Source: Escherichia coli
GTDB lineage: Bacteria > Pseudomonadota > Gammaproteobacteria > Enterobacterales > Enterobacteriaceae
Assembly (NCBI RefSeq): GCF_003018255.1
Contig: NZ_CP027440.1
Direction: 5' to 3' (one strand)
Length of the DNA: 64,000 bases
This document shows, one piece after another, positions 1-64,000 of the stretch (positions are counted from its first letter, which is position 1; every line of letters starts with the position of its first letter). The notes under the pieces are model-generated. The model had not been told where the DNA came from, searched no databases, and saw only the letters and a program-made list of their open reading frames with translations. The position numbers and the translations under genes are program-made.

Positions 1-38
1 ATTTTAAATATCCACTATTAAGCCAGTGTTTAACGGCG

Positions 39-311: not shown

Positions 312-462
312 ACTAAATCATCACATAACCATGACATTTTTCTGATATTCCCCGGTAACGCCAGATGTCGACTCGCTTATCTCATCCGCCCGACATGTTG
401 TACATGCAATATGTGCGGATTATTATTCATTTTCACGGAGGTTGCTATGTCAACCGGATTAC

Positions 463-2359: not shown

Positions 2360-2425
2360 TCCCGTACCTGTTCGGTATTCAGTAACAAACAAGCATTAAA
2401 AATAAACAGAAGAAGGAATTGAATC

Positions 2426-5400: not shown

Positions 5401-6586
5401 ACAGCATGGCGAGCCACTGGTCGAGAGCCGCTACCTTTACGACCCGCTGGGCCGCCGGACGGGTAAACGGGTATGGCGGCGGGAGCGTGACCTGACGGGG
5501 TGGATGTCGCTGTCGCGTAAACCGGAGGTGACGTGGTACGGCTGGGACGGCGACCACCTGACGACGGTGCAGACCGACACCACGCGTATCCAGACGGTAT
5601 ATCAGCCGGGGAGCTTCGCGCCGCTCATCCGCATCGAAACAGACAACGGTGAGCGGGAGAAAGCGCAGCGCCGCAGCCTGGCGGAGAAGCTGCAGCAGGA
5701 AGGGAGCGAGGACGGGCACGGCGTGGTATTTCCGGCTGAACTGGTGCGGCTGCTGGACAGACTGGAGGAAGAAATCCGGGCAGACCGCGTGAGCAGTGAA
5801 AGCCGGGCGTGGCTTGCGCAGTGCGGGCTGACGGTGGAGCAACTGGAAAAACAGGTGGAGCCGGAATACACACCGGCGCGAAAAGTTCATCTTTACCACT
5901 GCGACCACCGGGGACTGCCGCTGGCGCTTATCAGCGAAGACGGCAATACGGTGTGGAGCGCGGAGTATGATGAATGGGGAAACCTGCTTAATGAGGAGAA
6001 CCCGCATCATGTGTATCAGTCATACCGTCTGCCGGGGCAGCAGCATGATGAGGAGTCGGGGCTGTACTACAACCGGAACCGGTACTACGATCCGTTGCAG
6101 GGGCGGTATATCATCCAGGACCCGATAGGGCTGGCGGGGGGAATAAACCCGTACAGTTATGTTATGAACAATCCTGTGCAATGGATTGATCCATTGGGAT
6201 TAGCTCATACTTCAGGAAAATGGAAGGACTGTGGTAAAGGTTGTCGAATCCGAATAGATGGCGATGCTGTTGGTGACGGAAGACATTTGCATTGGGAGTG
6301 TAAAAATGGGAGTGGTGTAATGGGGGAATTTGGAGGTATGTCCCATGGTGAGGATTACTCATCAGCACCAAATAGCATTAAGAAATGTGCAAAAAAATAT
6401 GGTTTCGAGCCAGAACCAAGTAAAGATCTGTCATGCAAAACCTCCGGGCTATCAACTACTGATGCGGCTCTTGCAACTGGTGCTACAATTGGCGCAGGGT
6501 ATGTTATATATAGAGTGATTCGATTTATACCTTCACTTGCACCACCTCTTTGGTGGTCAATACCTGCAAACGTTGTTACTCCATGA
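2426..6586 (+). CDS. rhsE: Rhs family polymorphic toxin, full length (1386 aa): N-terminal domain, YD-repeat shell, PxxxxDPxGL motifs, divergent C-terminal tip
   Basis: N-terminus [31 protein letters not shown] and many YD repeats; DPIGLAGG at ~6120-6140 and WIDPLGL at ~6184-6204; GC-rich core then AT-rich ~125-aa tip; SD GAAGAAGGA upstream. Symbol is by position only. Confidence 0.85.
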
Positions 6587-6957
6587 TTAAAACGGATAAT
6601 GGAGATTATATAATGAGCGATTTTGACATTGTGAGTTCAATTGACTGGCATGATGGGGTTTTGTTAGAAGTAAAAACGACATTCAAAGAATCTCATTTTA
6701 ACATGACGTTATTTATTGACATTTATAAAAATGAGAACATTAGGGAAAAAATGATAGTTGAATTTTCTGATGTAGATGATTTAGTGTTCGCTATGGATTC
6801 TGCTGAGTTAATCGATAATCACAAGTCAGGTAATATAAGTAATGGGTATGTAAAGAAATTAAAAAACAAAAGGATATATAAATTTTTTCTTTATTTTTCT
6901 GATGGCTTATTAAGCATGACATTTAAAAATTTACAATTAATAAAACCATTAGAGTAA
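6583..6957 (+). CDS. putative cognate Rhs immunity protein (RhsI-like, ~124 aa)
   Basis: ATG overlaps the rhs TGA stop (ATGA) around 6583-6586; AT-rich like the toxin tip; no hydrophobic segment. Start could instead be 6550 or 6613. Confidence 0.6.
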
Positions 6958-6995
6958 CCAAATAAAAGGACTGGAGGAATCAGGGGAAGATCATT

Positions 6996-7021
6996 AAAGT
7001 TGTGATTATCATCACAACTTT
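6996..7021. repeat. perfect 11-bp inverted repeat AAAGTTGTGAT-TATC-ATCACAACTTT
   Basis: Read directly; lies ~40 bp after the immunity stop; terminator-like or protein-binding palindrome. Confidence 0.5.
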
Positions 7022-7124
7022 AATCTTGGTTTCACCTTGTTGATTTGATTAAAATTTAATCGCCAAATAATTAAATATATTAGAAAAGGACGTCTGGTGA
7101 ACATTCAAAGTCTTCTTGAGCATA

Positions 7125-8415
7125 CAGGGAAAGATCATCAGAAGTACACTTTTTGTACTAAATAATTCGCATTTTATGTTTAAAAATTGAGATATTCCTC
7201 ATTACCTAAAGCTGTTTTTTATTGCTTATACATGATCAAATACTCCTTACATAATTAAGGAGAACAAAATGGAACTTAAAAAATTGATGGGACATATTTC
7301 TATTATCCCCGATTACAGACAAACCTGGAAAGTGGAACATAAATTGTCAGATATTCTACTGTTGATTATTAGTGCCGTTATTTCTGGTGCAGAAGGCTGG
7401 GAAGATATAGAGGATTTTGGGGAAACACATCTCGATTTTTTAAAGCAATATGGTGATTTTAAAAATGGTATTCCTGTTCACGATACCATTGCCAGAGTTG
7501 TATCCTGTATCAGTCCTGCAAAATTTCACGAGTGCTTTATTAACTGGATGCGTGACTGCCATTCTTCAGATGATAAAGACGTCATTGCAATTGATGGAAA
7601 AACGCTCCGGCATTCTTATGACAAGAGTCGTCGCAGGGGAGCGATTCATGTCATTAGTGCATTCTCAACAATGCACAGTCTGGTCATCGGACAGATCAGG
7701 ACGGATGAGAAATCTAATGAGATTACAGCTATCCCTGAACTTCTTAACATGCTGGACATTAAAGGAAAAATTATCACAACTGATGCGATGGGTTGCCAGA
7801 AAGATATTGCAGAGAAGATACAAAAACAGGGAGGTGATTATTTATTCTCTGTAAAAGGAAACCCGGGGCGGCTGAATAAAGCTTTTGAGGAAAAATTTCC
7901 ACTGAAAGAATTAAATAATCCAGAGCATGACAGTTACGCAATTAGTGAAAAGAGTCACGGCAGAGAAGAAATCCGTCTTCACATTGTTTGCGATGTCCCT
8001 GATGAACTTATTGATTTCACGTTTGAATGGAAAGGTCTGAAGAAATTATGCGTGGCAGTCTCCTTTCGGTCAATAATAGCAGAACAAAAGAAAGAGCCAG
8101 AAATGACGGTCAGATATTATATCAGTTCTGCTGATTTAACCGCAGAGATGTTCGCCACAGCAATCCGAAACCACTGGCACGTGGAGAATAAGCTGCACTG
8201 GCGTCTGGACGTGGTAATGAATGAAGACGACTGCAAAATAAGAAGAGGAAACGCCGCAGAATTATTTTCAGGGATACGGCACATCGCTATTAATATTTTA
8301 ACGAATGATAAGGTATTCAAGGCAGGGTTAAGACGTAAGATGCGAAAAGCAGCCATGGACAAAAACTATCTGGCGTCAGTCCTTGCGGGGAGCGGGCTTT
8401 CGTAATCTTTCCCTG
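7125..8415 (+). mobile_element. ISAs1-family (H-repeat type) insertion sequence, copy 2, 1291 bp, same orientation as copy 1
   Basis: Same terminal repeats (CAGGGAAAGATCA ... CGTAATCTTTCCCTG) and same length as copy 1; internal sequence near-identical with scattered substitutions. Confidence 0.8.
7269..8405 (+). CDS. ISAs1-family DDE transposase (H-repeat-associated protein), 378 aa, copy 2
   Basis: Same length and register as 607..1743 with several substitutions (e.g. [15 protein letters not shown] vs [15 protein letters not shown]). Confidence 0.85.
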
Positions 8416-26312: not shown

Positions 26313-26345
26313 AAAATGGCGCTTTAAGAAGCGCCATTTTTTTAT
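26313..26345. terminator. rho-independent terminator after fdnI (usable from both strands)
   Basis: AATGGCGC-TTTAAGAA-GCGCCATT hairpin followed by a T7 run. Confidence 0.75.
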
Positions 26346-48303: not shown

Positions 48304-50676
48304 TTAAAATTTCATGCTGACATCAAGCCAGAAAGTACGGCCACTGGCGTAGGTCGCCACGCCGGTATTCGTTGTATCAACCGCGGTTTTGCTATCCAGT
48401 ACATTGAGAATATCGGCACTGATCGTCAGGTTTTGTTGTTTCAGAAATTGTGGCGTCCAGGACAAGCGGGTGTCCCAGGTCAGGCTGCTATCCAGTTTCT
48501 CGTCAACATACTGCTTGTAATCTGAATATTCGTTGATGTATTGCGCATTCGTCTTACCCAGGATAATGCGAGCTTTACGCGCTTCTTGCCAGGTCAGCGT
48601 ATTCGCCCACACCAACCCGCTCGGTTGATGCGTGAAATCCATGTTTAAGGAGATCTTTAATGGATTATTAAAATCCGCCACTGGAACGCTATCATAAGAG
48701 ACCAGATTACCGTTATAAACCACCCGGTTATCATCGGTATTGCTTTCCTCATAACCATTGTTTAACGACAAGTTGCCCTTGCTCTTGATATAGCTAAAGA
48801 CAATTTGCGGGTTAACATCTACCTGGCTGATATGCAGGGGTTCGGCCAGTTCAAAACTGAGGTTGAACGAATGCGTTTTGGTTTTGCCGTCGTTGTTATA
48901 TTCAGTAATGGTGGTTTTAGTCGCGCTGTCGGTACGACTGCTTTTGCTGATTTGATCATGCGCTTCACGGTAAACATAGTTTGCGCGCGCAATAACGTTC
49001 TTACCGATTTTCTGCTGCAACCCCATTGCCAGTTCATCGTTATAAGGCGTTTTCAAATCCTGATAACGCGTCAGGGTTTTATTGCCTGATACCGATTCCG
49101 TCCAGCTATTGCGGATATCACGTAATCCCATATCAAGAATATTCCCGCCATAGTAACGGTTATAACCTGCGGTAATCATTGAGGTTTGATCAGCAAAAAT
49201 ATCCCATTCCGTCATAAAGCGCGGGGAGATATTGTGGTTTGACAGATAGTTGTCATAGTCATACCGCACACCGGGCATTAACGACACATTCCGCCAGCTA
49301 ATGCGATCCGCCATATACAGCGTGTAGTTGTCAATTCCCAGACTGCCTTTACCTTTATGGTAAATGGTATGGTTAGTTTTCTTTCCTGCAGCATTAATCA
49401 CATAGGATTCAGACTGGTTATGGCGTTCAGTCCATGCATCGGAATAGATGTATTCCGCGCCGAAGTAGGGTTGATGCGAAACATCACCCACGGCGAATTT
49501 TTGCCAGTCCAGGCGTGTTTTGAAGGTGTAATTATCTACAGCCTGGGAAATGTGTCCTAATCCACCACGGGTGCAACGACCTGAAATATCACCATATGTA
49601 CATGAAAGTTCGGTGTACCAGATGTCATGATCGTGACGGGTATAATCACTAATATGATCCCAACCAACGGTAGTACGTAGTTTGGCCCATGCGAGCTGCG
49701 TATCCATATCCCATGCCAGACCGTAGGATTTATTACCCATTTCGCGATCAGACTGCGGGAAGGTGCTGGTATTATAATCACGACTGGAGCCGGTATATTT
49801 TAAGGTAAAATCGTGGGTAAAGCGGTCGCTGGCAAACCAAGTAAATTTGCTCAATGCGGTATCGATAACGTTTTTATACTGTGCCCGACCGGCGACAATG
49901 CCGTCATTCGAAACATAATCCGCGCGGGTGATATCAGACTGGCGGCGCGATAAACCGGCGGTAACGCCAAAGTTATCAGCGAGTTCCTGATTAAACGACA
50001 AGGTATAAAAGTTCTTTTTAAAATCTGGAGAGTAATAAGTACTTCCTGAAGAACCTTGATTAAATGCGCTCTTGTTATTCTCATCGATATGCGATGTTAA
50101 CCAGTCCGAACGCGTAGTGCGATAACCCAGTTTCACGCTGCTATCATCAGCGTTGAAGCGTTTGATCTTTGCATCAATTACCCCGCCATTGAAGCGACCG
50201 AATTCAACCGGCACAAAACTGTCATAAAGCGTCACATTGTCCAGTAAGCTGACATCAAGATAATAGCCCTGTGACATCCCGCTAATATTGGTTGCACTAC
50301 TGGCATCGGACTCATTCGCTGGGTTCAGGTTATTAGTTGCACTAATACCATCAATCAAATAGGCATTCTGGTAGGGCGACGCACCGTGAATAGAGATTTT
50401 CTCCGGGCGAATATCTCCCTGGTTCAATGAGGTACTTTGCGTTGAATCCATGCGCACCGCAGGGTTGGTTCTCAGCAGATCGCTGATATTGCCATTCCCG
50501 GTCGGTAAACGCTCGATGCTTTCACTGGTGTAATGCGTGTTGCCGTTTACGGGTACAGGGACAGGAGCATAGACCGTCATCTCTTCAAAAACATGCATGT
50601 ACATGTTTTTGTCATCGACGGCCTGCGCTACATCAGCGCCACATAAAATGACGCCAGGAATAAGAACTCGCTTCAT
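48304..50676 (-). CDS. yddB: TonB-dependent outer membrane receptor-like protein (790 aa)
   Basis: C-terminal phenylalanine and beta-barrel composition. Confidence 0.8.
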   Translation of the reverse strand: MKRVLIPGVILCGADVAQAVDDKNMYMHVFEEMTVYAPVPVPVNGNTHYTSESIERLPTGNGNISDLLRTNPAVRMDSTQSTSLNQGDIRPEKISIHGASPYQNAYLIDGISATNNLNPANESDASSATNISGMSQGYYLDVSLLDNVTLYDSFVPVEFGRFNGGVIDAKIKRFNADDSSVKLGYRTTRSDWLTSHIDENNKSAFNQGSSGSTYYSPDFKKNFYTLSFNQELADNFGVTAGLSRRQSDITRADYVSNDGIVAGRAQYKNVIDTALSKFTWFASDRFTHDFTLKYTGSSRDYNTSTFPQSDREMGNKSYGLAWDMDTQLAWAKLRTTVGWDHISDYTRHDHDIWYTELSCTYGDISGRCTRGGLGHISQAVDNYTFKTRLDWQKFAVGDVSHQPYFGAEYIYSDAWTERHNQSESYVINAAGKKTNHTIYHKGKGSLGIDNYTLYMADRISWRNVSLMPGVRYDYDNYLSNHNISPRFMTEWDIFADQTSMITAGYNRYYGGNILDMGLRDIRNSWTESVSGNKTLTRYQDLKTPYNDELAMGLQQKIGKNVIARANYVYREAHDQISKSSRTDSATKTTITEYNNDGKTKTHSFNLSFELAEPLHISQVDVNPQIVFSYIKSKGNLSLNNGYEESNTDDNRVVYNGNLVSYDSVPVADFNNPLKISLNMDFTHQPSGLVWANTLTWQEARKARIILGKTNAQYINEYSDYKQYVDEKLDSSLTWDTRLSWTPQFLKQQNLTISADILNVLDSKTAVDTTNTGVATYASGRTFWLDVSMKF

Positions 50677-50713
50677 TTATTTATATCTCCGTACAGCAGG
50701 GCTTTTATTGTTT

Positions 50714-52399
50714 TTATATAACCGCGCTAATGTCACAAATATCATCAGCCAGGTTCCAGACACCGGGTTGATGTGTAACCATAATGACGCCGCTTGTGGG
50801 TAGTTTTTCACGCACTAAACGCAGTAAGCGGATAGCCTCTTGTTCCTCAAGATGAGAGGTAGTTTCGTCAAGAAATATCCATTTCGGACGTCGTAAAATT
50901 AATCGTGCCAGGGCGATACGTTGTTTTTCGCCGCTGGAAAGAATATCGCCCCAGCGATCGTGGTCATGAATACGCGCAGCCAATTTCCCCAGACCAACCT
51001 GATGCAGTACTTCGCTCAACGATTTATCGTCTACGGACAGGGGAAGTGCTTTACAAATTATCTCTTTCAGTAAGCCGGTTTTGATTAACGGTGTTTGTGA
51101 CACATACCAACTGTCAGCAGGAGAAGAAATATCACCTTTAAACCACGGCCAGCAGTGGGATAATGTTTTAAGCAGTGTGGTTTTTCCCGCACCAGAGTAA
51201 CCTTTCAGTAATAGCCATTTGCCTGGCGAAACATGAAAGTTCAGGTTCTCTAATATGATCTTATTATCAGGAGTACGAATACTCGCGTCAGCCACTTGTA
51301 CCGCATGTTGGCAATTTTTAGGCTTATTCGTAGGGCGCTGTTCGGTGAGTTGATGGAACTCATACAAACGATCGATAACCGCAGCCAGTTCAGCAAGTTC
51401 GTCATATTTATAAATAAACCAGCTTAAATTGTTCGATACCAGCATAAATGCCTGGCGCGATTTCATCAGTCCGCCCAGATTGATCTGTCCGCTAATAAAC
51501 TGCGGCAATAACAGAAAGTAGGGAAGAACGCTAAGCGAGCGCGAATAAATATTCTGCCAGTAATCAAGCCACCGCTGACGATTCATTAAACGATGCCAGT
51601 TCTCTTTAATGGTATGAAAATTGTCGCTTAACTCCTGGCGTTGTAGAGACTCAGCATTGCTTAGCGCAATCAGTTCTGCCTGCTTATTATGCTGCACAAG
51701 ATTAGTTCGAAATGTCGCTTCGCTACGTTGTTTTTCCACATTAAGCGGACGAATACGTTTACCAACCTTATGGGTAAATAAAGTTCCACCGATCACAATG
51801 AGCACAACGGTATAGACCATATACCCCTGGATATTCCATTCTGTTCCACCAACAGTGAATGAGAGCGTACCCGCGCTTTGCCAAAGAATAACGGTAAAGG
51901 TGATCAACATGCTAAGTGACTGGATGAAGCCAAATGAAAGGCTGAGCGTTTTACTGATCAGTAAGAGAATGTCCTCAGCGATACGTTGGTCAGGGTTATC
52001 TGTATTTTTATGCTCACCGTAGATCTGCGTGAAGTAGTAGTTTTTATCTGCAAACCAGCGATTAAGGTAGTAATCTGTTAACCATTCGCGCCAGCGAATA
52101 GTCAGTAGTTTAATTAGCCATGTTTTGTTTACGGATATTAATACAAAGATCCCCAGCAGGGCAGGGAACCAAAGGACAAGCTGCCAAAGCTTATCGGTTT
52201 CTTTCTGGCTTAGCGCATTGAAAAAATCATTATTCCAGTCGTTTAACCAGACCTGAATTTTAACCACGCCAAGGATCATGGCGAGGATAATAATGATTAA
52301 CAACACTGAAGTTTTATTATTCTTACGCAGCCAAAATGGCTTCAGCAGACAGAGATACTTTGCTATCAACATACAAAACGTAATGGGAATGGTTATCAT
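50714..52399 (-). CDS. yddA: ABC transporter, fused permease/ATPase (561 aa)
   Basis: Walker A GYSGAGKTT in the C-terminal half. Confidence 0.8.
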   Translation of the reverse strand: MITIPITFCMLIAKYLCLLKPFWLRKNNKTSVLLIIIILAMILGVVKIQVWLNDWNNDFFNALSQKETDKLWQLVLWFPALLGIFVLISVNKTWLIKLLTIRWREWLTDYYLNRWFADKNYYFTQIYGEHKNTDNPDQRIAEDILLLISKTLSLSFGFIQSLSMLITFTVILWQSAGTLSFTVGGTEWNIQGYMVYTVVLIVIGGTLFTHKVGKRIRPLNVEKQRSEATFRTNLVQHNKQAELIALSNAESLQRQELSDNFHTIKENWHRLMNRQRWLDYWQNIYSRSLSVLPYFLLLPQFISGQINLGGLMKSRQAFMLVSNNLSWFIYKYDELAELAAVIDRLYEFHQLTEQRPTNKPKNCQHAVQVADASIRTPDNKIILENLNFHVSPGKWLLLKGYSGAGKTTLLKTLSHCWPWFKGDISSPADSWYVSQTPLIKTGLLKEIICKALPLSVDDKSLSEVLHQVGLGKLAARIHDHDRWGDILSSGEKQRIALARLILRRPKWIFLDETTSHLEEQEAIRLLRLVREKLPTSGVIMVTHQPGVWNLADDICDISAVI

Positions 52400-52689
52400 T
52401 AGCGAAAATTGATTGTGCCATCCAATGATTATCTATGGCAATGATTTACTGATAAAATTTATTTAAGTATCATTTAACAATATGAAATATAAAGAAATAT
52501 TTCATTTTCAGTGGTTATGGTTATGCTATTGATAATCAAGGGTATTGCTAATGCCCTGACGCATGCCGCGTAAGCCAGAATTTTCGCAAGGGAAGATGAT
52601 GATGACGAAACACCCAACAGGAATTTATGTCGGGTGCTTTGTTAAGGTCATAAGACGGAGGCTAAGACTGGAGCAAAGAAGGAGCGTTA

Positions 52690-53847
52690 TTAATTATTCT
52701 CCATTTGTTTTGCAACATCCATAATGTGGTAAAGCGGTACTCTGTTCTTGGCTAACTCCACCATGGCGTTCATATAAGGTACCATGGTTGAAAAAAGGAT
52801 TTTATAACCTTCGCAAAAATAGGAAATAGTCTCATTGTTTACTTTAGTAATACGATGCTTAGGGCAACCACCATTGCAGATAGGTTTATATACACATTGC
52901 TGACATTTCGCTGAAATCCGTTTTTTTTGCGCTGTCAGTTGTACACTGTTCATCGTTTTGAGTTCCGATTTATTAATGTTTCCAATTTTGTACTGTGGAT
53001 AGACAAAATGGTCGCATTCGTAAATGTCTCCATTACTTTCAACAACCAGATTATCCTTGCAGGACTCCTGGAAAATACAACTGGTATGCCCATTCCCCAA
53101 AAAACGGCTGACAAAGCTTTCAAACTGACGGATGAAAATTTCACCCACATCGTTTTTAACCCATTGCATAAAAATGGTTGACATAAACTTGCCATAAGCC
53201 GTGGGAGGCACAGAAAAATCAATGATACGGAATGTATTCTCAGTATGACCACTGAAATCAATATTCGGCGTCCCGGTTTCGAGCAATTCGATAAATTGCA
53301 TATGTTTACTGCCGATAGATTTTAAAAAATGATAAACCTCAAGAGGGTAATGGACATTAATGTTATTAATAACGGTTAACGTATTAAACTCTATTTGATA
53401 TGATTTCAGACGCTCGATGGCTGCTATCACTTTTGCAAAAGTACCGTTACCTGAATTACTGCGTCTGTAACGGTCATGTAGCTCTTGGGGGCCATCGATC
53501 GAGATACCAACCAGAAACTCATGTTCTTTGAGAAAGGCACACCATTCATTATTCAATAAAATGCCATTCGTTTGTAATGCATTAAAAATACGTTTTTGGC
53601 CTGCATAGCGTTGTTGATAGTGAATAACTTTACGGAAAAAATCCAGGCCAGCCAGAGTGGGTTCACCGCCTTGCCAGGTAAAATAGACCTGATTGCCAGA
53701 CGCTGCGATATATTGTTTGATGAACTCTTTCAGAGTGCTGTCATCCATCCATTTTTCATGAGTAAACTGCGACTCTTTTTCAAGGTAAAAACAGTAATCA
53801 CATTTGAGATTACATTGAAAACTGGAGGGCTTGGCTGTAACGTGCAT
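52690..53847 (-). CDS. ydeM: anaerobic sulfatase-maturating enzyme homolog, radical SAM (385 aa)
   Basis: CxxxCxxC motif (CNLKCDYC) near the N-terminus. Confidence 0.8.
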
Positions 53848-53898
53848 CGCTATCTCGCTCAATAAGGCGGCGGAAAAATCCGCCGCATGAAGGTTTAG

Positions 53899-55581
53899 TT
53901 ATTTCGCTTCGCTTAGTGCTTTCTTGATATTGTTAAACTTCTCCTGATTTACCTCGCTAAGCGGTGGCTGGCTGTTGTCGATAAACTCTCTTACCACGCC
54001 TTGCATCTCTTTAACGACCTGCGGATTGGCGGCGGCAAGGTTATCTTTTTGCTGTAGATCCGTCAGTTTGTAGAGACCTAACTGATTATTTTCTACTGTA
54101 TAGACAAGCGAATAATCGTTATTTCTCACCGTATAAGAGAATTGGCTTAAGTCCTCGGTGTTGGGGTTATGCGGGTAATCGTCTGACTGATGGCGGACAA
54201 ATTTGTGGTAATTATCCCAGAATGGAATATTTTCCTCATCAAACCAGTGAGAATAAGAGGTTATCCAGGTCAGATTTTTATGTGGCTCGCCTTGTTTCTT
54301 ATCTTGCAACCAGGGCAGCAAGGAAACGCCATCCAGCTTAAGGTCTTTTGGAATGCTGATATCGGCTGCATCAAGAGCTGTCGGGTAGAAATCCATTGCG
54401 GAAATCAGCTTGTCATAATTACCGGGTTGAAGTTTTCCTTTCCACCACATAAACATTGGGGTGTGAGTACCGCCAGGATAGGTCTGACTCTTATAGCCTT
54501 TTTGCGCCCCGTTCAGCGGCAGAGGACCATCGATAACCGCACCATTATCGGAGGTAAAGAGAATAATAGTATTGTCATACTGTCCGTTTTTCTTCAGTTG
54601 TTCGAGAATGCGTTTTACACCCTGATCAACAGAATAAACGGAAGCGTAGTAGTTATCTGCTGTTTGACTACCGGTATTAAATTGCTTCTGATATTGCTCC
54701 GGTGCAGGATTATCATTTGGCAGATGCGGAGCATTATAAGCCAGGTAAAGCATAAAAGGCTGGTCAAGTGTTTTGGCACGATCAACAACGCCAATTGCCT
54801 CATCGGTTAACTGATCGCTGATATAACCTTTTGCGGGGACGCGTTCACGGTTTTTGAACAGTGAAGGGGAGTTGTAATATGCCGTTCCTGCAGCGTGGAA
54901 TCCCATAAAGTAATCAAAGCCACGGTTTTGCGGTTGCCATTCTTCCGCAGAATAGGTGGTGAAGTTGTCATGATAGTCACGCGTTTGTTTATCTTCCGGT
55001 ACCGGCACATTACTGATTTTTGACAAGTGCCATTTACCTACTGCTGCAGTGTAATAACCATGATTCTGGAATAATTCAGGCAGGAAAGTTTCTGTTAGCG
55101 GAATACCATCCTGAGCATCGGTATTGGAATAGACACCAAAGCGGGCGGGCGCTCGACCGGTCATTATTGCGGCGCGGGAGGGGCCGGAAACACCGTGCGC
55201 CACATAGCCGTTAGTAAAACGTACGCCTTCATCCATTAATGACAGGAGCGTCGGCGTTGATTTTTGCGCAGCTTCAATGGCTTTATCTATCCCTATTTTG
55301 TAGGTATCGACAACTTCACGATTTTCCATTGTTTTTGGGTCAAAAGATCCCTTATCAAAAGGAAGTTGTCCATAACCAAGATCATCCATAGTCAGTACGA
55401 TAATATTTGGCTTTCCCTTGGTACTGTATTCAGTCGGCGTAAAGTCTGAGAAAGCAACGTTTGTTTTGGTTGCTTTCAGCTTTACATCATCTGCCGCATG
55501 AGCAGCAAATGCAGCCATACCAGATGCCAGTATCAAAGATATCGAGGTACTTACGACACTTTTCTTTAATGCAGACTTCAT
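53899..55581 (-). CDS. ydeN: putative sulfatase (560 aa) with signal peptide
   Basis: Alkaline-phosphatase-superfamily sulfatase next to its maturase homolog. Confidence 0.8.
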   Translation of the reverse strand: MKSALKKSVVSTSISLILASGMAAFAAHAADDVKLKATKTNVAFSDFTPTEYSTKGKPNIIVLTMDDLGYGQLPFDKGSFDPKTMENREVVDTYKIGIDKAIEAAQKSTPTLLSLMDEGVRFTNGYVAHGVSGPSRAAIMTGRAPARFGVYSNTDAQDGIPLTETFLPELFQNHGYYTAAVGKWHLSKISNVPVPEDKQTRDYHDNFTTYSAEEWQPQNRGFDYFMGFHAAGTAYYNSPSLFKNRERVPAKGYISDQLTDEAIGVVDRAKTLDQPFMLYLAYNAPHLPNDNPAPEQYQKQFNTGSQTADNYYASVYSVDQGVKRILEQLKKNGQYDNTIILFTSDNGAVIDGPLPLNGAQKGYKSQTYPGGTHTPMFMWWKGKLQPGNYDKLISAMDFYPTALDAADISIPKDLKLDGVSLLPWLQDKKQGEPHKNLTWITSYSHWFDEENIPFWDNYHKFVRHQSDDYPHNPNTEDLSQFSYTVRNNDYSLVYTVENNQLGLYKLTDLQQKDNLAAANPQVVKEMQGVVREFIDNSQPPLSEVNQEKFNNIKKALSEAK

Positions 55582-55982
55582 AAATGTTCCTCTTCTTATT
55601 GTACTTAATTCCAAAGTAATTTTACGAAGAGAAATAAGTGGATGTAAGTGAAGTTAGTCACATAAAGAGATAGCAGATTAAGCTAAAAAAAGAGAAATAA
55701 CAGTCCATAAACTGTTGACATTACTTTCTATTCTACTAAGTAATTTCTCGCCGATAAACAACTAATCTATTGATATTTAATAAATTATTGTATTTTACTG
55801 ACAAAATTCCGAATTGAGATCATAAATAATCATGCAACAGGTTATGCAAATGCATAAATATGTGATGAATGTCACTTATTTATTTCAATAATATATCGCC
55901 TAAAAACAACGCGGGGCAGGGAATGGCTGCCCCATTTTAATTTCTACGTAACGTGCGTGGTTGACTACTCGTTAGCAAATAA

Positions 55983-56744
55983 TCAAATAGCTAAAGCACT
56001 CATCGTGTTATCCGTGTTCATACCCGTGTGCCTTTGACAACGGTACTCCTTAGAAACTCTCTTCGGACTGTTGCCGAAATGTTTGCGGAACGCATAAATA
56101 AAATAAGATGTACTCGCATAACCACATTGTTCGGCAATTTTATTGACTGAACCTTCTACGCGTATCAAATTTTTTGCGTGCTGCATTCTGGCATCTAAAA
56201 GAATCTGTGAGAATGTCGTTTGCTCTTGCTTTAGTTTTTTCTTCAACAGGCTTTCACTAATGTACAGGCAGTCACAAATATCTTTCAGCTTCCATGGGTG
56301 CGCCAGCTTCATGTTGACAATATTTCTCACTTTCCCGGAAACGGATAGCACACCGTTAGTTAATAGTGTAATGAAACCTTTGCATGTGGCAAAAATAGAC
56401 AGGCAAGAAAAAAGCAAAAGTTCTGAAAAGTTATGATGATTGCGTTCTTCCGAGTTGAGATAAGCAATCATTTCATTAAGCAATCCAGTCGGTACATTTG
56501 AAGCACGTAAAAACTTCGCAGGGACAGGCATCGTCACTGTCTGGATGTTAGTGCATTGTAGATATTTTTTAATGGTGTTTTCATTAAATCCGATTTCTTT
56601 GAAATGCCGCTCATAAGGTTCAAAATGCGTACGAACAGCGTTATCTACCATCAGGATCTCGCCGTCAGAGAAGGCGTAATCTTTATCTGAAATGTTAGCG
56701 TTGAAGGCATGATGAATAAATATAACAGAACAAACGAGCGACAT
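55983..56744 (-). CDS. ydeO: AraC-family acid-resistance regulator YdeO (253 aa)
   Basis: C-terminal AraC-type HTH. Confidence 0.85.
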   Translation of the reverse strand: MSLVCSVIFIHHAFNANISDKDYAFSDGEILMVDNAVRTHFEPYERHFKEIGFNENTIKKYLQCTNIQTVTMPVPAKFLRASNVPTGLLNEMIAYLNSEERNHHNFSELLLFSCLSIFATCKGFITLLTNGVLSVSGKVRNIVNMKLAHPWKLKDICDCLYISESLLKKKLKQEQTTFSQILLDARMQHAKNLIRVEGSVNKIAEQCGYASTSYFIYAFRKHFGNSPKRVSKEYRCQRHTGMNTDNTMSALAI

Positions 56745-56818
56745 TTTATCTCCTTAAAATAATAAAGTTTTTATCGATAATTTTTTAACATTTCATATTT
56801 ATAATTTGCTGTTTATTT

Positions 56819-57016
56819 TCAGTCTTGCAAACTATTGATAATGAAATGTGTAAGATCTCTTGCAATGCGACCCATTTCTGAAATACCCAGCTGATCAATT
56901 GCCGAAAAAATGGCTATCAACGTAAGTGTCAGTAATAAGACAACCACAATTACAGACATGATTTCTTTATAGTTGTCTCTTTGCGTGATTTTGTTTTTCA
57001 CTGTGGTCGCATGCAT
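56819..57016 (-). CDS. safA: small membrane protein SafA, PhoQ activator (65 aa)
   Basis: Single TM segment; immediately upstream of ydeO. Confidence 0.8.
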   Translation of the reverse strand: MHATTVKNKITQRDNYKEIMSVIVVVLLLTLTLIAIFSAIDQLGISEMGRIARDLTHFIINSLQD

Positions 57017-57127
57017 TTCAAATATGTTAATTTAGCGGATAACGTTAAAAATCGTTAATCAGTATGCTTAATATAACAGGCTGGAGAAAAGAGGAAATAG
57101 GACTGGCACTTCAGTACTGAGCGGAGT

Positions 57128-57146
57128 TTCTTACAGCTGTAGGCAG
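57128..57146. promoter_or_regulatory. EvgA-box-like inverted repeat TTCTTACA-GC-TGTAGGCA upstream of safA
   Basis: Close to the EvgA consensus TTCYTACA-N2-TGTARGAA; nearly the same 18-mer recurs upstream of ydeP. Confidence 0.5.
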
Positions 57147-57263
57147 AAGTTTATATCTTATAGGATGTGGTTTAATTTAATCCATGTGAGCAAATTGCGC
57201 GATAATAGTCAATGAGGAATTCTTCTGCTGTGCGGATGACAGCAGAAGAAATGAGAAGAGGCA

Positions 57264-59543
57264 TTAATTTGATGGTTCTAATTCAACCGGAATACTTTTA
57301 TAGCCTGGAATGCCACTTAATGGATCGTGGTTATCAAGTGTTAGCATGTGATTCGATTCTGGAAAATAGGTCACCAGTGAGCGGTCAGCCATAGGGTAAA
57401 TGACCACTTTTAATCTATCCATGCGGCGTGAGCTTCGCTTACCGTCTGGCGTAAGCGCAATAAGATTAACTCTTTCGCCGTTTTTTACACGGCAAATTTT
57501 AGCTTGTTTAGCACTCATAAAGACCACATCTCGTTGACCGAATACCCCTCGATAGCGATCATCCATACCATAAATCGTCGTGTTGTACTGATCGTGACTG
57601 CGTACTGTCGCCATGACTAGCTTACTGTTAAACGCTGAAGAGGGATCTTCTAACAGCCCTTTACTGGTAATGAAATTAGCCTTACCTGACGACGTCCTCC
57701 AGCGCCTTTCAGCAGCTGCGTTTATCAGGTGAAAACCTCCAGGATGTCGGATGCGCTGGTTATAGTCGGCGAACTCTGGCAGTACAGCTTCAATGTCATT
57801 GCGAATGCGATCATAATCTTCCACCAGATACTCCCAGGCTACCACGCTCTGGGGGAGTGCTGCCTGCGCGATTCCCGCAACCACTGCACACTCTGATTTC
57901 AGCATTACACCGGCGGGTTTTAACACGCCACGCGAGGCATGAATCATCGACATTGAATCCTCAACGGTTACCGCCTGCGTACCGCTTTTTTGCATGTCAA
58001 TCTCGCTGCGTCCCAGAACCGGCAGAATATAGCTATGCCGTGCGGTCAGCAGATGAGAGCGGTTAAGCTTAGTGGCAACGTGTACCGCCAGATCTAATTG
58101 CGTTAACGGTACAGCGCTCGCTTCCCGATCTGGCATTGCCAGTGCAAAGTTGCCCCCCATGCAGATCAATGCGCGAGCCTGCCCCGTACATATTGCTTGC
58201 ATGCTGGCAATTGCAGCATGTCCAGGTGCATGAGGTGGGGTGAAACCATAGCGCTCACCCAGGCGAGCCAGAAACTCTGCAGACGGTTTCTCGGTGATAC
58301 CGACGGTTCGGTCGCCCTGTACATTAGAGTGACCTCGTAGTGGGCAGATACCCGCACCAGGCTTACCAATGTTACCTTTCATCAACAGCAGATTGACCAG
58401 TTGCTGTACGTTCTGGGTACCATGTTCGTGCTGAGTGATCCCCATTCCGTAACAGATAATGGTTCGTTCGGCAGCGGCATATGCATCAGCAAGTTCGGCG
58501 ATTTGTGTCTGACTTAGTCCAGAAATACGTTCGATATCTTTCCACTCGGAATTGAGCACGTCACGGCGTAGCTCGTCAAAGCCGATGGTATGCGTTTGAA
58601 TAAATTCGTCATCCAGCAATGAGGGCCGACCTGCGGCGCTTGCAGCATCATCGCGCTCAATTAACAGGCGCATCATCCCCTTGAGCAACGCCATATCACC
58701 ACCAATGCGCACGTTGTAGTAGGCACTGGCCAACTGAGTCTCAGAGTTCGTCAGCATTTCAAACGGGTTTTGCGGTGCGGTAAATCGCTCCAGGCCACGT
58801 TCCTGTAGAGGATTGATGGCGATCATTTTCGCTCCCCGTTTCACTAAAGCGCGCAACGAAGTCAACATGCGAGGGTGGTTTGTACCAGGGTTATGCCCAA
58901 TGCAAATGACTAAATCGCATTTCTCAAAGTCTTCCAGCAACACGGTCCCTTTACCTACACCGATACTCGCTGCCAAACCCACACTGGTCGGTTCATGGCA
59001 CATGTTGGAGCAGTCGGGGAAGTTATTGCTCCCGTATTCACGGGCAAAAAGCTGATAAAGAAAGGCAGCTTCATTGGAAGTGCGGCCCGAAGTATAGAAT
59101 TCAACCTGATTGGGATCACTATAGCTTTGAAGGCGTTCGCCAATTTCGTCGAAAGCTTGTTGCCAGCTTAATGGCTTGTAACAGTCGCTGACGTCATCAT
59201 ATTTCAAAGGCTGAGTGAGACGTCCCGCAGCCTCAAGCTCGTGATCTCCCCAGGTAAGTAATGATTGAACCGTATTCTCAGCAAAGAAAGAGGCATTTAC
59301 CTGCTTATCCGTGACTTCCCAGGCGATTGCTTTTGCGCCGTTTTCACAAATGTCGAATGACGCACTGTGCTTAGGATCTGGCCATGCACATCCCGGACAG
59401 TCAAAGCCCTCTGGCTTATTCATATCAAACATGGCAATAACATCCTGGCGTATATCCATCTGCTTACGTACTGCATTTGCTACGGATTTAACAGCACCCC
59501 AACCACCGGCAGCTCCCTGGTAGGATTCAATTTTTTTCTTCAT
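57264..59543 (-). CDS. ydeP: molybdopterin oxidoreductase-like acid-resistance protein YdeP (759 aa)
   Basis: Formate-dehydrogenase-like fold, full length. Confidence 0.85.
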
Positions 59544-59785
59544 CTGCTTATCCTGTGTGGAAATGAATTATTAGGATTTGTAATAGCGATGATGCACAGT
59601 ATATACAAAGGGATTATCGTCAACATGGATATATAAGAGTAGGGGACTACTCTCTTTCTATTTTAATCTATTATCGTTAAACAAAAGATTAAATACGATA
59701 AATTAAGCATCATCTCTCATAGTGTTTAAATTAACATATTTTTCAATATAAAAAATAAGACTCTGGCGTTAATTGTGCGCGGATT

Positions 59786-59803
59786 TTCTTACAGGTGTAG
59801 GAT
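59786..59803. promoter_or_regulatory. EvgA-box-like inverted repeat TTCTTACA-GG-TGTAGGAT upstream of ydeP
   Basis: Second copy of the motif seen at 57128; flanked by an imperfect inverted repeat AATTGTGCGCGGAT ... ATCCGCGCAATT. Confidence 0.5.
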
Positions 59804-59875
59804 AATAGCCTTCACAAAATAATTATCCGCGCAATTTTCGCGAATGGAGCGCATAGACTAAGGTCAAAATCACAA

Positions 59876-60790
59876 TTATTCATAGATAAAAGTGACACCA
59901 ATGACTGACTGAACTGTTCCGGCTGAAACTTTGTTTCCTGTTTGTCCATAGGTTGCGCTTAAACCCAGAGGTACTTTGCTTTTATTTACTGTCCCCAGGG
60001 AGACGTTTTCTCCCGTAGCCAGTATTTTTCCATTACGCATCAGAGAGACACCCACTCCCGATGCTTTTGTTGCATCTGGTGCTGTGTTAGCAAACACTTG
60101 TCTGGCACTGTCAGTGGTAGCACCCGAAAGATAAAATGAGAGCTTTTGTTCACTTGAGCAATATACGCCAAGGGGTATTTCTGCGCTTCCAAGAAAGTCC
60201 GGGAGATTCACGTTGACATTACGACTATCAACGGTGCAGCCGCCTGTTGGCATAACAACACTGTTATTTGAAATAATATTCCACGTAAAATTACGCGGAT
60301 TTCCGCTTCCTAACGTGGCAATTTTATACATATGAATACGGGCAATAACTTCCCCTGCTTTTATGACAACTCCACCGGCCACTCCGACTGGGGTAATATA
60401 GAGTTTTAACGGTAATGGCATCGGTGTCTTATCACCAATATCCAATACGTTGGTATTTGTCGTCAACGGGAAGGGGTAGGTCACATTATTCCAGTACAGT
60501 GATCCTTTATATGACTGTAGGGAGCCTGCGAAAGCTGATCCTTGTACCAGGTTTATATGATCAGTGTCGTACCAGCCGCCGTAATCATTCCAGCAACTTA
60601 TATGCTGAGACAAGTCTACAACCAGATTCTGGCCCGGTTGTATTACAGGATCGAGATTAACATAAACAGAGGTTGTACCTGCTCCAATACTTGACCCGCC
60701 ATCGACATTACAACTGAAGGCAAAAACTTTGCCTGCCATTAATAGAAGATAAATACCGAACAGGACCTTTATACTGAATGTTTTATCCAT
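59876..60790 (-). CDS. ydeQ: fimbrial adhesin-like protein (304 aa)
   Basis: Signal peptide; FimH-like size; last gene of a chaperone-usher cluster. Confidence 0.75.
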
Positions 60791-60849
60791 GATATATCCT
60801 AAGGTTAAAAAATTGATTTAAAAAGGAGGCAAAAAAAATCAAATTGATG

Positions 60850-61353
60850 TTATTGCCAGGTATAGATCACATTGATTAGCGCCTCGATCGTTCCCTGGCT
60901 TGCGTTTCCATTCACCGTGATAGCTCTTGCCTTAAGTGGAAACTGTGCATTACGAGTGATCTCATCAACAATAACCGTTTTGCTATCGCCATTTTTTAAC
61001 GTCGCATCCTGGTCATCCCTTAGCTCTATCTGAATATTTTCGGCAGTACCTTCATTTTTGTAATAACCCGTATTGTCAGTTGAACCTGTCACGATTGCCG
61101 TCACTGCACTTGTTTCAACCGGACAATCGGTTAATGACAAAGTAATATTGTGCCAGCCTGATGCAGAACCAGGTTGTTGCAGATTGCGCGTATAAAGATC
61201 CCCGAGATTAACGTTAGCTTCTTTGGTTTGAATAGTGCAGGGTTTAGCGACTACCCGACCATTAACAGTGATAGTGACATCGGCGGCCTGGAGAGTTGCT
61301 GTGAATAACGCGCAAAACGTCGCTAACAGGAACCTCTTGTGAAGTCTTTTCAT
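60850..61353 (-). CDS. ydeR: fimbrial minor subunit (167 aa)
   Basis: Signal peptide and pilin-like C-terminus. Confidence 0.75.
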   Translation of the reverse strand: MKRLHKRFLLATFCALFTATLQAADVTITVNGRVVAKPCTIQTKEANVNLGDLYTRNLQQPGSASGWHNITLSLTDCPVETSAVTAIVTGSTDNTGYYKNEGTAENIQIELRDDQDATLKNGDSKTVIVDEITRNAQFPLKARAITVNGNASQGTIEALINVIYTWQ

Positions 61354-61365
61354 ATCTGGCTCTGA

Positions 61366-61896
61366 TTATTGAAATTCAAGGGTAAAGGTTGCCGAAGCCC
61401 TCACCAGTCCCGGATTGACGGACTTCTGAGTTGACTTCAGACGAGCGGAGTAAGGCAAAATATTGTTCTGTTCTGGTACCAGTGGGATCCACTGCATCCC
61501 GGCATGAAGGTCATTCAATTTCACCGGACGCATATTTCCGTCCAGTATTTCTATACCCAAACCGGAGGCCGTGTTGCTTCCTTCATCCAGTTTCAACAGA
61601 GTATTATTTTCTGCATCCTCAATACCGTTAAATGCAACCCGAACCCCCGTTGTCCCTTTACTGCATTCACTTAACGTAATCTGAAAAGGGACGGCTGGAC
61701 TTGTGCTACCGGTCGTTGGAAATTGTCTGGCACTGTTTTTTTGGAGATCTACGGTAAAATTAAGCGAATCCGATGAGACTGTGCAGCCATAATCGAGAAC
61801 GCGCCCGCTAATTTTAATAACGCTATCTGCAGATAAAGCAGAATAGGTGGTTAACCCCAGACATAAACCGAGGAAAATAACGTTATTGTATTTCAT
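61366..61896 (-). CDS. ydeS: fimbrial minor subunit (176 aa)
   Basis: Signal peptide and pilin-like C-terminus. Confidence 0.75.
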   Translation of the reverse strand: MKYNNVIFLGLCLGLTTYSALSADSVIKISGRVLDYGCTVSSDSLNFTVDLQKNSARQFPTTGSTSPAVPFQITLSECSKGTTGVRVAFNGIEDAENNTLLKLDEGSNTASGLGIEILDGNMRPVKLNDLHAGMQWIPLVPEQNNILPYSARLKSTQKSVNPGLVRASATFTLEFQ

Positions 61897-61909
61897 AATC
61901 TATTGTTCC

Positions 61910-63922
61910 TTAGCGACAGATTGCTGTCTGCTGGTTCAGCAAGGTTTCAGGAGAGACTGCAGGAAGCTTGTACTCGACAATACAGTTTGAGTTTTTATCT
62001 TTGCCCCATGAAACCTGTAATTTCCCTGACTGTGGAAGTCCAGTCAGATAAACCTGACCGTTTTCCGCGACAATGCTGCCATTTTTATTCTCCCCATGTG
62101 TGACAATTGCACCGAATGGAACGCTCTTATTACCGTACTTCAACGTCATTAATACTTTCCCGCCGATTTGTGCATTAAATGTTGCTCTGGCAATAGCACC
62201 GTGAGTTGGGATGACAGTGACAACGGTTTCATCCAGTTCAACATTATCTGCAAGGGAATTCGCGTTAAGAGCGACACGATTTTCTCTATATTCTGTCGCA
62301 AATGGTAATATGGCATAGCCACGCCAGTCGGTATGAATTCCGGTCTGGTTCTCTATTTTGACATTATCAGCGCCAGGAGCCTTAACCAGAACCATTGTGT
62401 CGCCCAGCGGCTGTCCAAAGGTGATGCCATCAGCATGAGCAATAATGCCACCACTCATTCCGTAATAAATCTGGCTGCTGTCACCACTCCGACTGTAACC
62501 GACATTCGTATTACCGTAAGCTCCACGATAATTAAGAGAACTGTAACCACTGGTGCCAGACGATGTATTACCCCCTTGGGTGTTACCGACCTGAACGCTA
62601 TAATTCAGGTTATTATCCGGCAGCAGAGTGCCATAAACCCCTGATAGGTTGGTCATGCCGCCTTTCAAATCGTTTGACATACTGTAACTGGCGTTTGAAT
62701 TACGAAATGCCGACTGACTGTCTGTACGCATCCAATGACTGAAGGGAACATTAAGCGTAAAAGCAAGTAAATGATCCCGATCGTTTTGCCATATATTATT
62801 GGAATAGCTGTAATTCAGCGAAGTCGTAATATCACCAAACGGCACATTTAATCCAAATGATATTTGCTGGTCGCTGCGTGACGTGTTCCAGTAACTTTGG
62901 CGACTGGCACTGAAAAATGTCGTACCGTAATGTCCAAGCTGCTGAGAGATGCTTATTTGTTCCTGACCACGCTTACTGTAAAACAGATTAAAATAATCAA
63001 TAAATAGTGTCTGCTCATTGCTGTCTCCGGTAGGAGGCTTGACGGTGTAACCACTCATTCGACTGTAGGCACTGTCGGATAAGTTATAAAAACCTTGCGT
63101 AGAATAGCGATATCCTGCGACCTGGATATTGGTTCCCGTCTGGTAGAAGGATTTGCTGTAGACGGATTTAACCGATTGTCCGCTGTGACGGGTGTCATCT
63201 GCAAGCGTCGTATTGGCCTGCGTGATATCGAAAGAAAAGGCACCAAAAAGTCCTAAATCTTTACCAATACCAAGGTTGAAGGCCTGATATTCTTCTGCAA
63301 TTTGCATTCCGCCATAAGGTGTCCAGTTTCCTTCCAGTCCATGCATCAAGCTACCTTGTATGAATTTGGGGGAGCTTTGCAGGTTATTTCCACTACGATA
63401 TTCCCCCATGGCAAGCGCATAACGCGTATATCCAGCACGTTGGAGAACCGGAACAGACGAATAAGGAACATATAATGTCTGAATACTGCCGTCTGCATCT
63501 TTTATGGTTACTTGCAGATCACCACCATTGGCCGCAGAGTTGATATCATCAATAGTAAAAGGGCCGGGTGGGACAGTAGTCTGATAAACATCGTATCCAT
63601 TCTGTTTTACACTCACTTGTGCGGTGCCGCGGGCAATACCATGAATCACCGGAGCGAAACCATGTTGGCTATCGGGCAACATCGCTTCTGTTGAATTTAT
63701 TTTGAGGCCACGAAAGTTTACACTATCAAAAATATCGCCATCGGTATAACTATCACCTACCGTTAAGCGTGAGCGTAAGGGAATAATGTCACGTTCAGCC
63801 GACGTATTGATATGCTGCCATTTATTGCTGTCAGATGAATTGCTACTCCCACTGTTATAACTCCACGTTGAGTTATCGCGCAGTCGCCAACTACCAATGT
63901 TGATGCCACTCTGTAAATTCAA
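61910..63922 (-). CDS. ydeT: fimbrial usher (FimD-like), C-terminal 670 codons; N-terminal part lies at or beyond the window edge
   Basis: Usher-type beta-barrel sequence; the track ORF starts at the first in-window Met, so intact versus truncated cannot be decided here. Confidence 0.6.
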   Translation of the reverse strand: MNLQSGINIGSWRLRDNSTWSYNSGSSNSSDSNKWQHINTSAERDIIPLRSRLTVGDSYTDGDIFDSVNFRGLKINSTEAMLPDSQHGFAPVIHGIARGTAQVSVKQNGYDVYQTTVPPGPFTIDDINSAANGGDLQVTIKDADGSIQTLYVPYSSVPVLQRAGYTRYALAMGEYRSGNNLQSSPKFIQGSLMHGLEGNWTPYGGMQIAEEYQAFNLGIGKDLGLFGAFSFDITQANTTLADDTRHSGQSVKSVYSKSFYQTGTNIQVAGYRYSTQGFYNLSDSAYSRMSGYTVKPPTGDSNEQTLFIDYFNLFYSKRGQEQISISQQLGHYGTTFFSASRQSYWNTSRSDQQISFGLNVPFGDITTSLNYSYSNNIWQNDRDHLLAFTLNVPFSHWMRTDSQSAFRNSNASYSMSNDLKGGMTNLSGVYGTLLPDNNLNYSVQVGNTQGGNTSSGTSGYSSLNYRGAYGNTNVGYSRSGDSSQIYYGMSGGIIAHADGITFGQPLGDTMVLVKAPGADNVKIENQTGIHTDWRGYAILPFATEYRENRVALNANSLADNVELDETVVTVIPTHGAIARATFNAQIGGKVLMTLKYGNKSVPFGAIVTHGENKNGSIVAENGQVYLTGLPQSGKLQVSWGKDKNSNCIVEYKLPAVSPETLLNQQTAICR

Positions 63923-64000
63923 ATATGCATAGTTGGATTTTCCTGCATTATGGTTACTACGATTATTAATAGAATTACCATTAAAACTATAGTTTAGTAG

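What the first reader, a model, noticed from the sequence alone, without database searches (positions are those of the whole stretch)
61910..64000. Fimbrial usher status cannot be settled at the window edge
The ydeQRS-type subunit genes are intact and the usher frame is open for 670 codons up to 63922. In K-12 this usher is recalled as a truncated pseudogene. Whether this strain has an intact usher (a potentially functional cryptic fimbria) depends on sequence beyond position 64000 and on the frame between 63923 and 64000.
Basis: inference. Interest (0 to 1): 0.25.

Follow-up and report, generated by a model that had tools for sequence, protein, structure and literature searches.

The report
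Intact F9/Fml fimbrial usher, cut by window
The gene at the window edge is the well-known F9 (Fml/Yde) fimbrial usher of E. coli. It is merely cut off by the end of the window: an identical public contig shows a complete 883-residue usher with its chaperone and major subunit, so this is ordinary and already described.

Summary
The minus-strand usher frame is open from its stop (61910-61912) to the last base of the window: 696 codons, not 670. Position 63922 is only the first TTG that an ORF finder reports. There is no stop or frameshift in 63923-64000.

The fragment holds the complete Pfam Usher domain and PapC_C. Only the signal peptide and the PapC_N domain (187 codons, 561 nt) lie past the edge.

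The window reads through the K-12 ydeT deletion junction (window 63136/63137) and carries 864 nt that K-12 lacks. The K-12 truncation is therefore excluded by the window alone.

A public contig (L007) is 100.000% identical to the window over all 14,125 shared bases and continues past the edge. It encodes an uninterrupted 883-aa usher, a 236-aa chaperone and a 187-aa major subunit, with hipBA upstream. Four close complete genomes show the same arrangement.

The adhesin's lectin domain is 159/160 identical to the crystallised FmlH. This is the six-gene F9/Fml/Yde operon, reported intact in about 60% of E. coli genomes. About 68% of 5,426 complete genomes carry the unseen segment.

One caveat: another contig, identical to the window where they overlap, carries a private 3,492-bp deletion. 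The window reads through that junction too.

Verdict: already known, low interest.

The parts
61910..64000 (-). C-terminal 696 codons plus stop of the F9/Fml (Yde) outer-membrane usher. These are residues 188-883 of an 883-aa protein (WP_001563355.1). They hold the whole beta-barrel/plug domain (Pfam Usher) and the C-terminal domain (PapC_C). The gene runs off the window; its ATG would lie at window-equivalent 64561.
   Evidence: Open frame to the edge. Pfam PF00577 positions 1-549/549 at E=2e-199, and PF13953. 696/696 residues identical to the tail of the 883-aa usher of L001, L002, L004 and L007. Best solved relatives are FimD 6e14/3rfz.
63136..63137 (.). Position that corresponds to the K-12 MG1655 ydeT deletion junction (3,281-bp deletion, L001 6584-9864). 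The window is continuous across it.
   Evidence: blastn of K-12 against L001, using the map L001 p = window 73001-p. Junction sequences. The K-12 junction is held by about 1,375 of 5,426 genomes.
63051..63052 (.). Position that corresponds to the junction of a second, larger deletion (3,492 bp, L001 6458-9949, GTT microhomology). It occurs in contig L008, which is otherwise 100% identical to the window. The window is continuous across it.
   Evidence: The junction was not found as a single piece among the best hits in the complete genomes.
61366..61896 (-). ydeS, a 176-aa minor fimbrial subunit (labelled FimF-like adaptor in some annotations).
   Evidence: PF00419, E=3e-22
60850..61353 (-). 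ydeR, a 167-aa minor fimbrial subunit (FimG-like).
   Evidence: PF00419, E=1e-9
59876..60790 (-). ydeQ = F9/Fml tip adhesin (FmlH), 304 aa. It has a FimH-type lectin domain plus a pilin domain.
   Evidence: Pfam FimH_man-bind E=3e-77. Lectin domain 159/160 identical to PDB 6AOW FmlH, with A113V the only change. Pocket residues F1, Y46, D53, K132, N140 and R142 (named in PMC5866590) are all retained. Differs from the JNE23-011 allele by P200L.

Best explanation
The window ends inside the usher gene of the chromosomal F9 (also called Fml or Yde) chaperone-usher fimbrial operon of E. coli. The operon lies between hipBA and ydeP, in the order major subunit, chaperone, usher, ydeS, ydeR, ydeQ/fmlH. 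The gene is not truncated in this strain; it is only cut by the window boundary, and the missing part is 561 nt encoding the signal peptide and the N-terminal domain.

How it works follows from established knowledge of FimD/PapC ushers. The periplasmic chaperone delivers subunits to the usher's N-terminal domain. The plug leaves the 24-stranded barrel. Subunits are joined by donor-strand exchange and handed to the C-terminal domains, so a fibre tipped with the adhesin FmlH is extruded. FmlH binds Gal(beta1-3)GalNAc and related galactosides.

Shown here: the open frame, the domain content, the absence of both known deletions, and the intact full operon in an identical contig. Inferred: that the source genome itself is identical beyond position 64000, and that the operon is expressed only conditionally. 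In CFT073 it is H-NS-repressed and expressed at low temperature.
For: The frame is open to the edge, 696 codons. The fragment has the full Usher and PapC_C domains, whereas K-12 YdeT covers only model positions 286-549. The window reads through the K-12 junction and carries 864 nt absent from K-12.

L007 is 100.000% identical to the window over 14,125 nt and encodes an 883-aa usher, a 236-aa chaperone and a 187-aa major subunit, with hipBA upstream. 22 further places were collapsed as similar to L007. Of the 24 contigs read that carry the exact YdeQ allele, only one, L008, was listed separately. Four close complete genomes have the usher annotated as an intact 2,652-nt CDS, and three of them match all 696 window residues.

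The unseen 561 nt is present at >=80% coverage in 3,680 of 5,426 complete genomes. The usher is 97.5-97.6% identical to the ushers of clone D i2 and O157:H7. The adhesin is 159/160 identical to crystallised FmlH. The operon layout, its flanks, and the 60% (25/42) rate of intact operons with K-12 scored as disrupted are published in PMC3966885. The FmlH receptor and pocket are described in PMC5866590.
Against: The first 187 codons, the chaperone, the major subunit and the promoter are not in the window, so their state in the source genome is inferred, not seen. No complete genome in the collection is identical to the window throughout: the best is 99.7% over 25 kb, so the exact source genome was not identified there.

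A contig identical to the window over 7,248 nt (L008) carries a private 3,492-bp deletion of this very region. Close relatedness therefore does not by itself guarantee an intact operon. No expression or assembly data exist for this strain.
Confidence: 0.93

Rival explanations
1. The usher is disrupted just beyond the window edge, by a private frameshift, an IS insertion, or a deletion whose junction lies upstream of 64000. The operon would then be non-functional in the source strain even though the frame is open in the window.
For: The f9 operon is often disrupted: 40% of 42 genomes in PMC3966885. At least three different deletion spacings were seen here, one of them in a contig identical to the window where they overlap. 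IS3 insertions occur in the locus in some strains (H10).
Against: L007 is identical over all 14,125 shared bases and is intact, and 22 further places were collapsed as similar to it. All four close complete genomes that were inspected are intact. The two known deletion junctions map inside the window, which reads through both.
Confidence: 0.05
2. It is the K-12-type ydeT remnant: a truncated usher pseudogene that lacks its N-terminal half, chaperone and major subunit.
For: The K-12-type junction is common, in about 1,375 of 5,426 genomes.
Against: The K-12 junction corresponds to window 63136/63137. The window continues for 864 nt of usher sequence that K-12 lacks and covers Usher model positions 1-549, against 286-549 in YdeT.
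Confidence: 0.005
3. The operon is structurally intact but is a silent relic in this lineage. It would never be expressed because of changes in the variable 5' regulatory region, so the intact usher has no phenotype.
For: F9 is H-NS-repressed and barely expressed at 37 C in CFT073, and the 5' region is variable and holds remnants of regulator genes (PMC3966885). A truncated helix-turn-helix pseudogene lies upstream in L001, L002 and L007.
Against: All six ORFs are intact. The usher is 97.5-97.6% identical in protein to those of distant phylogroups. The adhesin pocket residues are unchanged. A long-silent relic would be expected to have accumulated disruptions.
Confidence: 0.15

Closest known systems
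F9 fimbriae of UPEC CFT073 and EHEC O157:H7 (= Fml pili of UTI89; yde locus)
   Same: Same chromosomal site next to ydeP, with hipBA upstream in L007. Same six-gene order. The usher is 97.5-97.6% identical to those of clone D i2 and O157:H7 F7508. The adhesin lectin domain is 159/160 identical to crystallised FmlH.
   Different: Only allelic differences. This is a rare allele: only 14 of 5,346 records are >=99% identical over the 4.2 kb. The window's YdeQ has A113V in mature numbering relative to the crystallised protein and differs from the JNE23-011 allele at precursor residue 200 (P in JNE23-011, L in the window).
E. coli K-12 ydeT (b1505), truncated usher remnant
   Same: Orthologous locus. 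The last 382 residues align with 375/382 identical. ydeQRS have the same lengths.
   Different: K-12 has a 3,281-bp deletion that removes the promoter region, major subunit, chaperone and usher codons 1-475. The window strain does not have it.
Type 1 fimbrial usher FimD (PDB 3RFZ, 4J3O, 6E14)
   Same: Closest solved structure over the full length (1,150-1,164 bits). It aligns from the N-terminal domain to the C-terminus, and the three-domain Pfam architecture is the same.
   Different: A paralogous system at a different locus. Its adhesin FimH binds mannose, whereas FmlH binds galactosides (PMC5866590).

Membership tests
FimD/PapC outer-membrane usher family | Complete central Usher domain (beta-barrel with plug), Pfam PF00577 | tested here: met
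   The window fragment matches model positions 1-549 of 549 at E=2e-199.
FimD/PapC outer-membrane usher family | C-terminal periplasmic domain (PapC_C, PF13953) | tested here: met
   Residues 617-680 of the fragment, E=1e-21.
FimD/PapC outer-membrane usher family | N-terminal chaperone-subunit docking domain (PapC_N, PF13954) and signal peptide | tested here: inconclusive
   These lie outside the window. They are present at residues 43-195 of the 883-aa protein in L001 and in L007, which is 100% identical to the window where they overlap.
FimD/PapC outer-membrane usher family | Cognate PapD-type periplasmic chaperone encoded next to it | tested here: inconclusive
   Outside the window. A 236-aa PapD_N+PapD_C protein lies directly upstream in L001 and L007.
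F9 / Fml / Yde fimbrial operon | Chromosomal position: ydeP at the 3' side and hipBA at the 5' side | tested here: met
   ydeP lies at 57264-59543, next to ydeQ in the window. hipBA is upstream in L007 and L002. The layout is as described in PMC3966885.
F9 / Fml / Yde fimbrial operon | [quoted passage not shown] | tested here: met
   The last four genes are in the window. The first two, and the start of the usher, are in the identical contig L007.
F9 / Fml / Yde fimbrial operon | Tip adhesin is FmlH with its galactoside pocket (F1, Y46, D53, K132, N140, R142) | tested here: met
   159/160 identity to PDB 6AOW. All six residues named in PMC5866590 are retained in the window sequence.
F9 / Fml / Yde fimbrial operon | Fimbriae are actually assembled and bind Gal(beta1-3)GalNAc/GlcNAc glycans | not testable with these tools
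   This needs expression and binding assays on the strain.
K-12-type ydeT usher pseudogene | 3,281-bp deletion junction that leaves only the last ~382 codons | tested here: not met
   The junction maps to window 63136/63137, and the window is continuous there for a further 864 nt.

The most novel reading that the evidence does not exclude
The 5' half of the f9 operon (promoter, major subunit, chaperone and the N-terminal half of the usher) has been lost repeatedly by independent microhomology deletions with nearly the same extent. Examples are the 3,281-bp deletion in K-12-type strains and a 3,492-bp deletion within the window's own clone; a third junction spacing in SCU-172/MSB1_4I may mark another but was not resolved. 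ydeQRS and the usher tail are always kept. This could reflect recurrent selection against F9 expression, or for keeping the tip genes, rather than neutral decay.
Probability: 0.12. Interest if true: 0.3.

Novelty: already known. Interest (0 to 1): 0.07.

Why it matters
It matters little beyond correct annotation. The strain should be scored as carrying a complete F9/Fml operon, an adhesin system linked to chronic urinary tract infection, kidney binding and attachment at low temperature or to plants. It should not be scored as carrying the K-12-type remnant. The case is also a reminder that a 'first start codon' coordinate from an ORF finder is not a frame boundary, and that a gene cut by a window edge is not a pseudogene.

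Tried and rejected
1. A stop or frameshift between 63923 and 64000: rejected, because the usher frame is open there and only the other two frames have stops.

2. The K-12-type deletion: rejected by mapping the junction to 63136/63137.

3. The L008-type 3,492-bp deletion, found in a contig identical to the window where they overlap: rejected, because the window reads through 63051.

4. Looking for the exact source genome among complete RefSeq E. coli genomes: none is identical. The best is 99.7% over 25 kb, with mosaic divergence and one IS200 difference. The exact match came instead from the protein-identity look-up.

5. Counting L008-type junctions in complete genomes: the tool joins pieces up to 600 nt apart, so K-12-type genomes score as covering the query. 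The 12 best-ranked hits all had two pieces, and a single-piece match would have ranked first, so no such carrier appears to exist in the collection.

6. Searches (script looked for a missing file; search term too short) failed for technical reasons and gave no information.

7. The large protein-database searches, structure prediction and RNA tools were not used, because the genome comparisons already settled the question.

Full report
**The observation**

On the minus strand the window carries ydeP (57264-59543), ydeQ (59876-60790, 304 aa), ydeR (60850-61353, 167 aa) and ydeS (61366-61896, 176 aa). A long frame then follows whose stop codon is at 61910-61912. The three subunit genes have the same lengths as in K-12 MG1655.

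Translating from base 64000 gives 696 sense codons before the stop. The 26 codons from 63923 to 64000 (LLNYSFNGNSINNRSNHNAGKSNYAY) contain no stop, whereas the other two frames there do. So the frame runs off the window and nothing interrupts it.

**What it is**

The fragment matches the Pfam Usher model over its whole length (positions 1-549 of 549, E=2e-199) and also matches PapC_C. The only missing part is PapC_N, which occupies residues 43-195 of the full-length protein. The best solved relatives of the full protein are the FimD structures 6E14, 3RFZ and 4J3O, which align from the N-terminal domain to the C-terminus.

ydeS and ydeR are Fimbrial-family subunits. ydeQ has a FimH-type lectin domain that is 159/160 identical to the crystallised FmlH lectin domain of PDB 6AOW. 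The ligand-contacting residues F1, Y46, D53, K132, N140 and R142, named in PMC5866590, are all retained; the single change is A113V.

This is therefore the F9 / Fml / Yde chaperone-usher operon. [quoted passage not shown] They are flanked by ydeP on the 3' side and hipBA on the 5' side. The operon was intact in 60% (25/42) of the genomes examined, and disrupted in K-12 and most other phylogroup A strains.

**Is it the K-12 remnant?**

No. In MG1655, ydeT is 1,149 nt (382 aa) and covers only Usher model positions 286-549. Aligning K-12 to an undeleted relative (L001) shows a 3,281-bp deletion, L001 6584-9864. It removes the 5' region, the major subunit, the chaperone and usher codons 1-475. With the map L001 p = window 73001-p, the junction falls at window 63136/63137. 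The window continues for another 864 nt of usher sequence that K-12 lacks. The K-12 junction itself is held by about 1,375 of 5,426 complete genomes.

**What lies beyond the edge**

- **Complete genomes.** The last 4.2 kb of the window differs at a single base from JNE23-011 and JNE112863. That base is in ydeQ, and the 2,091 usher bases show no mismatch. In these two genomes, and in 2017.09.02CC and Z1323HEC0067, the usher is annotated as an intact 2,652-nt CDS. A 711-nt chaperone gene and a 564-nt major subunit gene precede it, and the ORF was confirmed. The window's 696 residues equal the tail of that 883-aa protein (WP_001563355.1) in three of the four genomes.
- **An identical contig.** No complete genome is identical to the window throughout; the best is 99.7% over 25 kb. 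I therefore looked up contigs that encode the window's exact YdeQ allele, which differs from the JNE allele by P200L. L007 (Logan assembly of SRR25147227, a 60-kb contig) is 100.000% identical to the window over all 14,125 shared bases, window 49876-64000. It continues upstream with an uninterrupted 883-aa usher, a 236-aa chaperone and a 187-aa major subunit, then hipA and hipB. 22 further places were collapsed as similar to it.
- **Where the unseen genes would lie.** In window-equivalent coordinates the usher ATG is at 64561, the chaperone at 64603-65313 and the major subunit at 65676-66239.
- **Population frequency.** The unseen 561 nt is present at >=80% coverage in 3,680 of 5,426 complete genomes. 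The whole K-12-deleted segment is present at that coverage in 3,514.

**A caveat worth recording**

The same look-up returned L008 (GCA_053698015.1), which is 100% identical to the window over 7,248 nt (window 55804-63051). It carries a 3,492-bp deletion, L001 6458-9949, that encloses the K-12 deletion and has a GTT microhomology at the junction. Its flanks are identical to the window's own lineage and unlike K-12, which is 97.4% identical on the right flank and 94.7% just left of the junction. The deletion therefore arose independently.

The 12 best-ranked hits in the complete genomes all match this junction in two pieces. A single-piece match would have ranked first, so none appears to carry it. 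Two genomes, SCU-172 and MSB1_4I, show a third spacing. Clonal relatedness alone therefore does not guarantee an intact operon. However, the window reads through both mapped junctions (63051 and 63136), so neither deletion is present here.

**How it most likely works**

This rests on established knowledge of FimD/PapC ushers and on the cited F9/Fml papers; none of it was tested here. The chaperone caps each subunit in the periplasm and docks on the usher's N-terminal domain. The plug is displaced from the barrel. Donor-strand exchange adds subunits below the FmlH-YdeR-YdeS tip, and the C-terminal domains hold the growing fibre.

FmlH binds terminal Gal/GalNAc and Gal(beta1-3)GalNAc (PMC5866590). 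F9 of CFT073 recognises Gal(beta1-3)GlcNAc glycans, is repressed by H-NS and is expressed at 20 C (PMC3966885).

- **Shown here:** the sequence integrity, the domain content and the near-identity to the characterised proteins. The usher is 97.5-97.6% identical to those of clone D i2 and O157:H7.
- **Inferred:** that the source genome equals L007 beyond base 64000 (my estimate is about 0.93), and that expression is conditional.

**Novelty and score**

This is an already known system, a known polymorphism (intact versus K-12-type deletion) and a rare but unremarkable allele. The finding is a window-edge question and it resolves to 'ordinary'. The only mildly interesting by-product is the recurrence of independent deletions of nearly the same segment.

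Noticed in passing
window 63051 and 63136 (junction equivalents); L008 7740-7742; L003 (K-12) around 12080: At least two independent deletions of nearly the same 3.3-3.5 kb of the f9 operon exist. The K-12 type is 3,281 bp and occurs in about 1,375 of 5,426 genomes. A private 3,492-bp deletion with GTT microhomology occurs in a contig otherwise identical to the window. SCU-172 and MSB1_4I show a third junction spacing (753-bp span).
   Followed up: partly
L001 567-5283 and L004 1-433 (upstream of the f9 operon, beyond the window): JNE23-011 and JNE112863, the closest complete genomes, carry a filamentous-phage-like block (Zot-domain protein, GspD/pIV-like secretin, phage coat protein) where L002 and L007 have hipBA. 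Whether hipBA is displaced or lost there was not checked.
   Followed up: no
window 40020-40560: dosC, the diguanylate cyclase partner of DosP, is reduced to a remnant. The dosP-to-digH gap is 565 nt in the window against 1,770 nt in K-12, where dosC is 1,383 nt. The closest genome annotates a 165-nt pseudogene there. The strain would have DosP without DosC.
   Followed up: partly
window about 26338-26343: JNE23-011 has an IS200C copy (about 705 nt) between fdnI and yddM that the window lacks. To the left of that point the window is 99.04% identical to JNE23-011, and to the right 99.94%, which suggests a recombination mosaic.
   Followed up: partly
window 56430-58173 (ydeP and its downstream flank): The mismatches against JNE23-011 cluster here (about 50 in 1.7 kb). 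2017.09.02CC is nearly identical in this stretch but diverges further along, in the ydeN-ydeM-yddA part (window about 50800-53600). This is a local allele exchange between close relatives.
   Followed up: no
window about 1-8400: By collinearity with JNE23-011 (offset 711), this end of the window holds ISAs1 transposase copies, an RHS core protein gene and a remnant of a T4 gp5-like (VgrG-type) gene. The window itself was not examined here.
   Followed up: no
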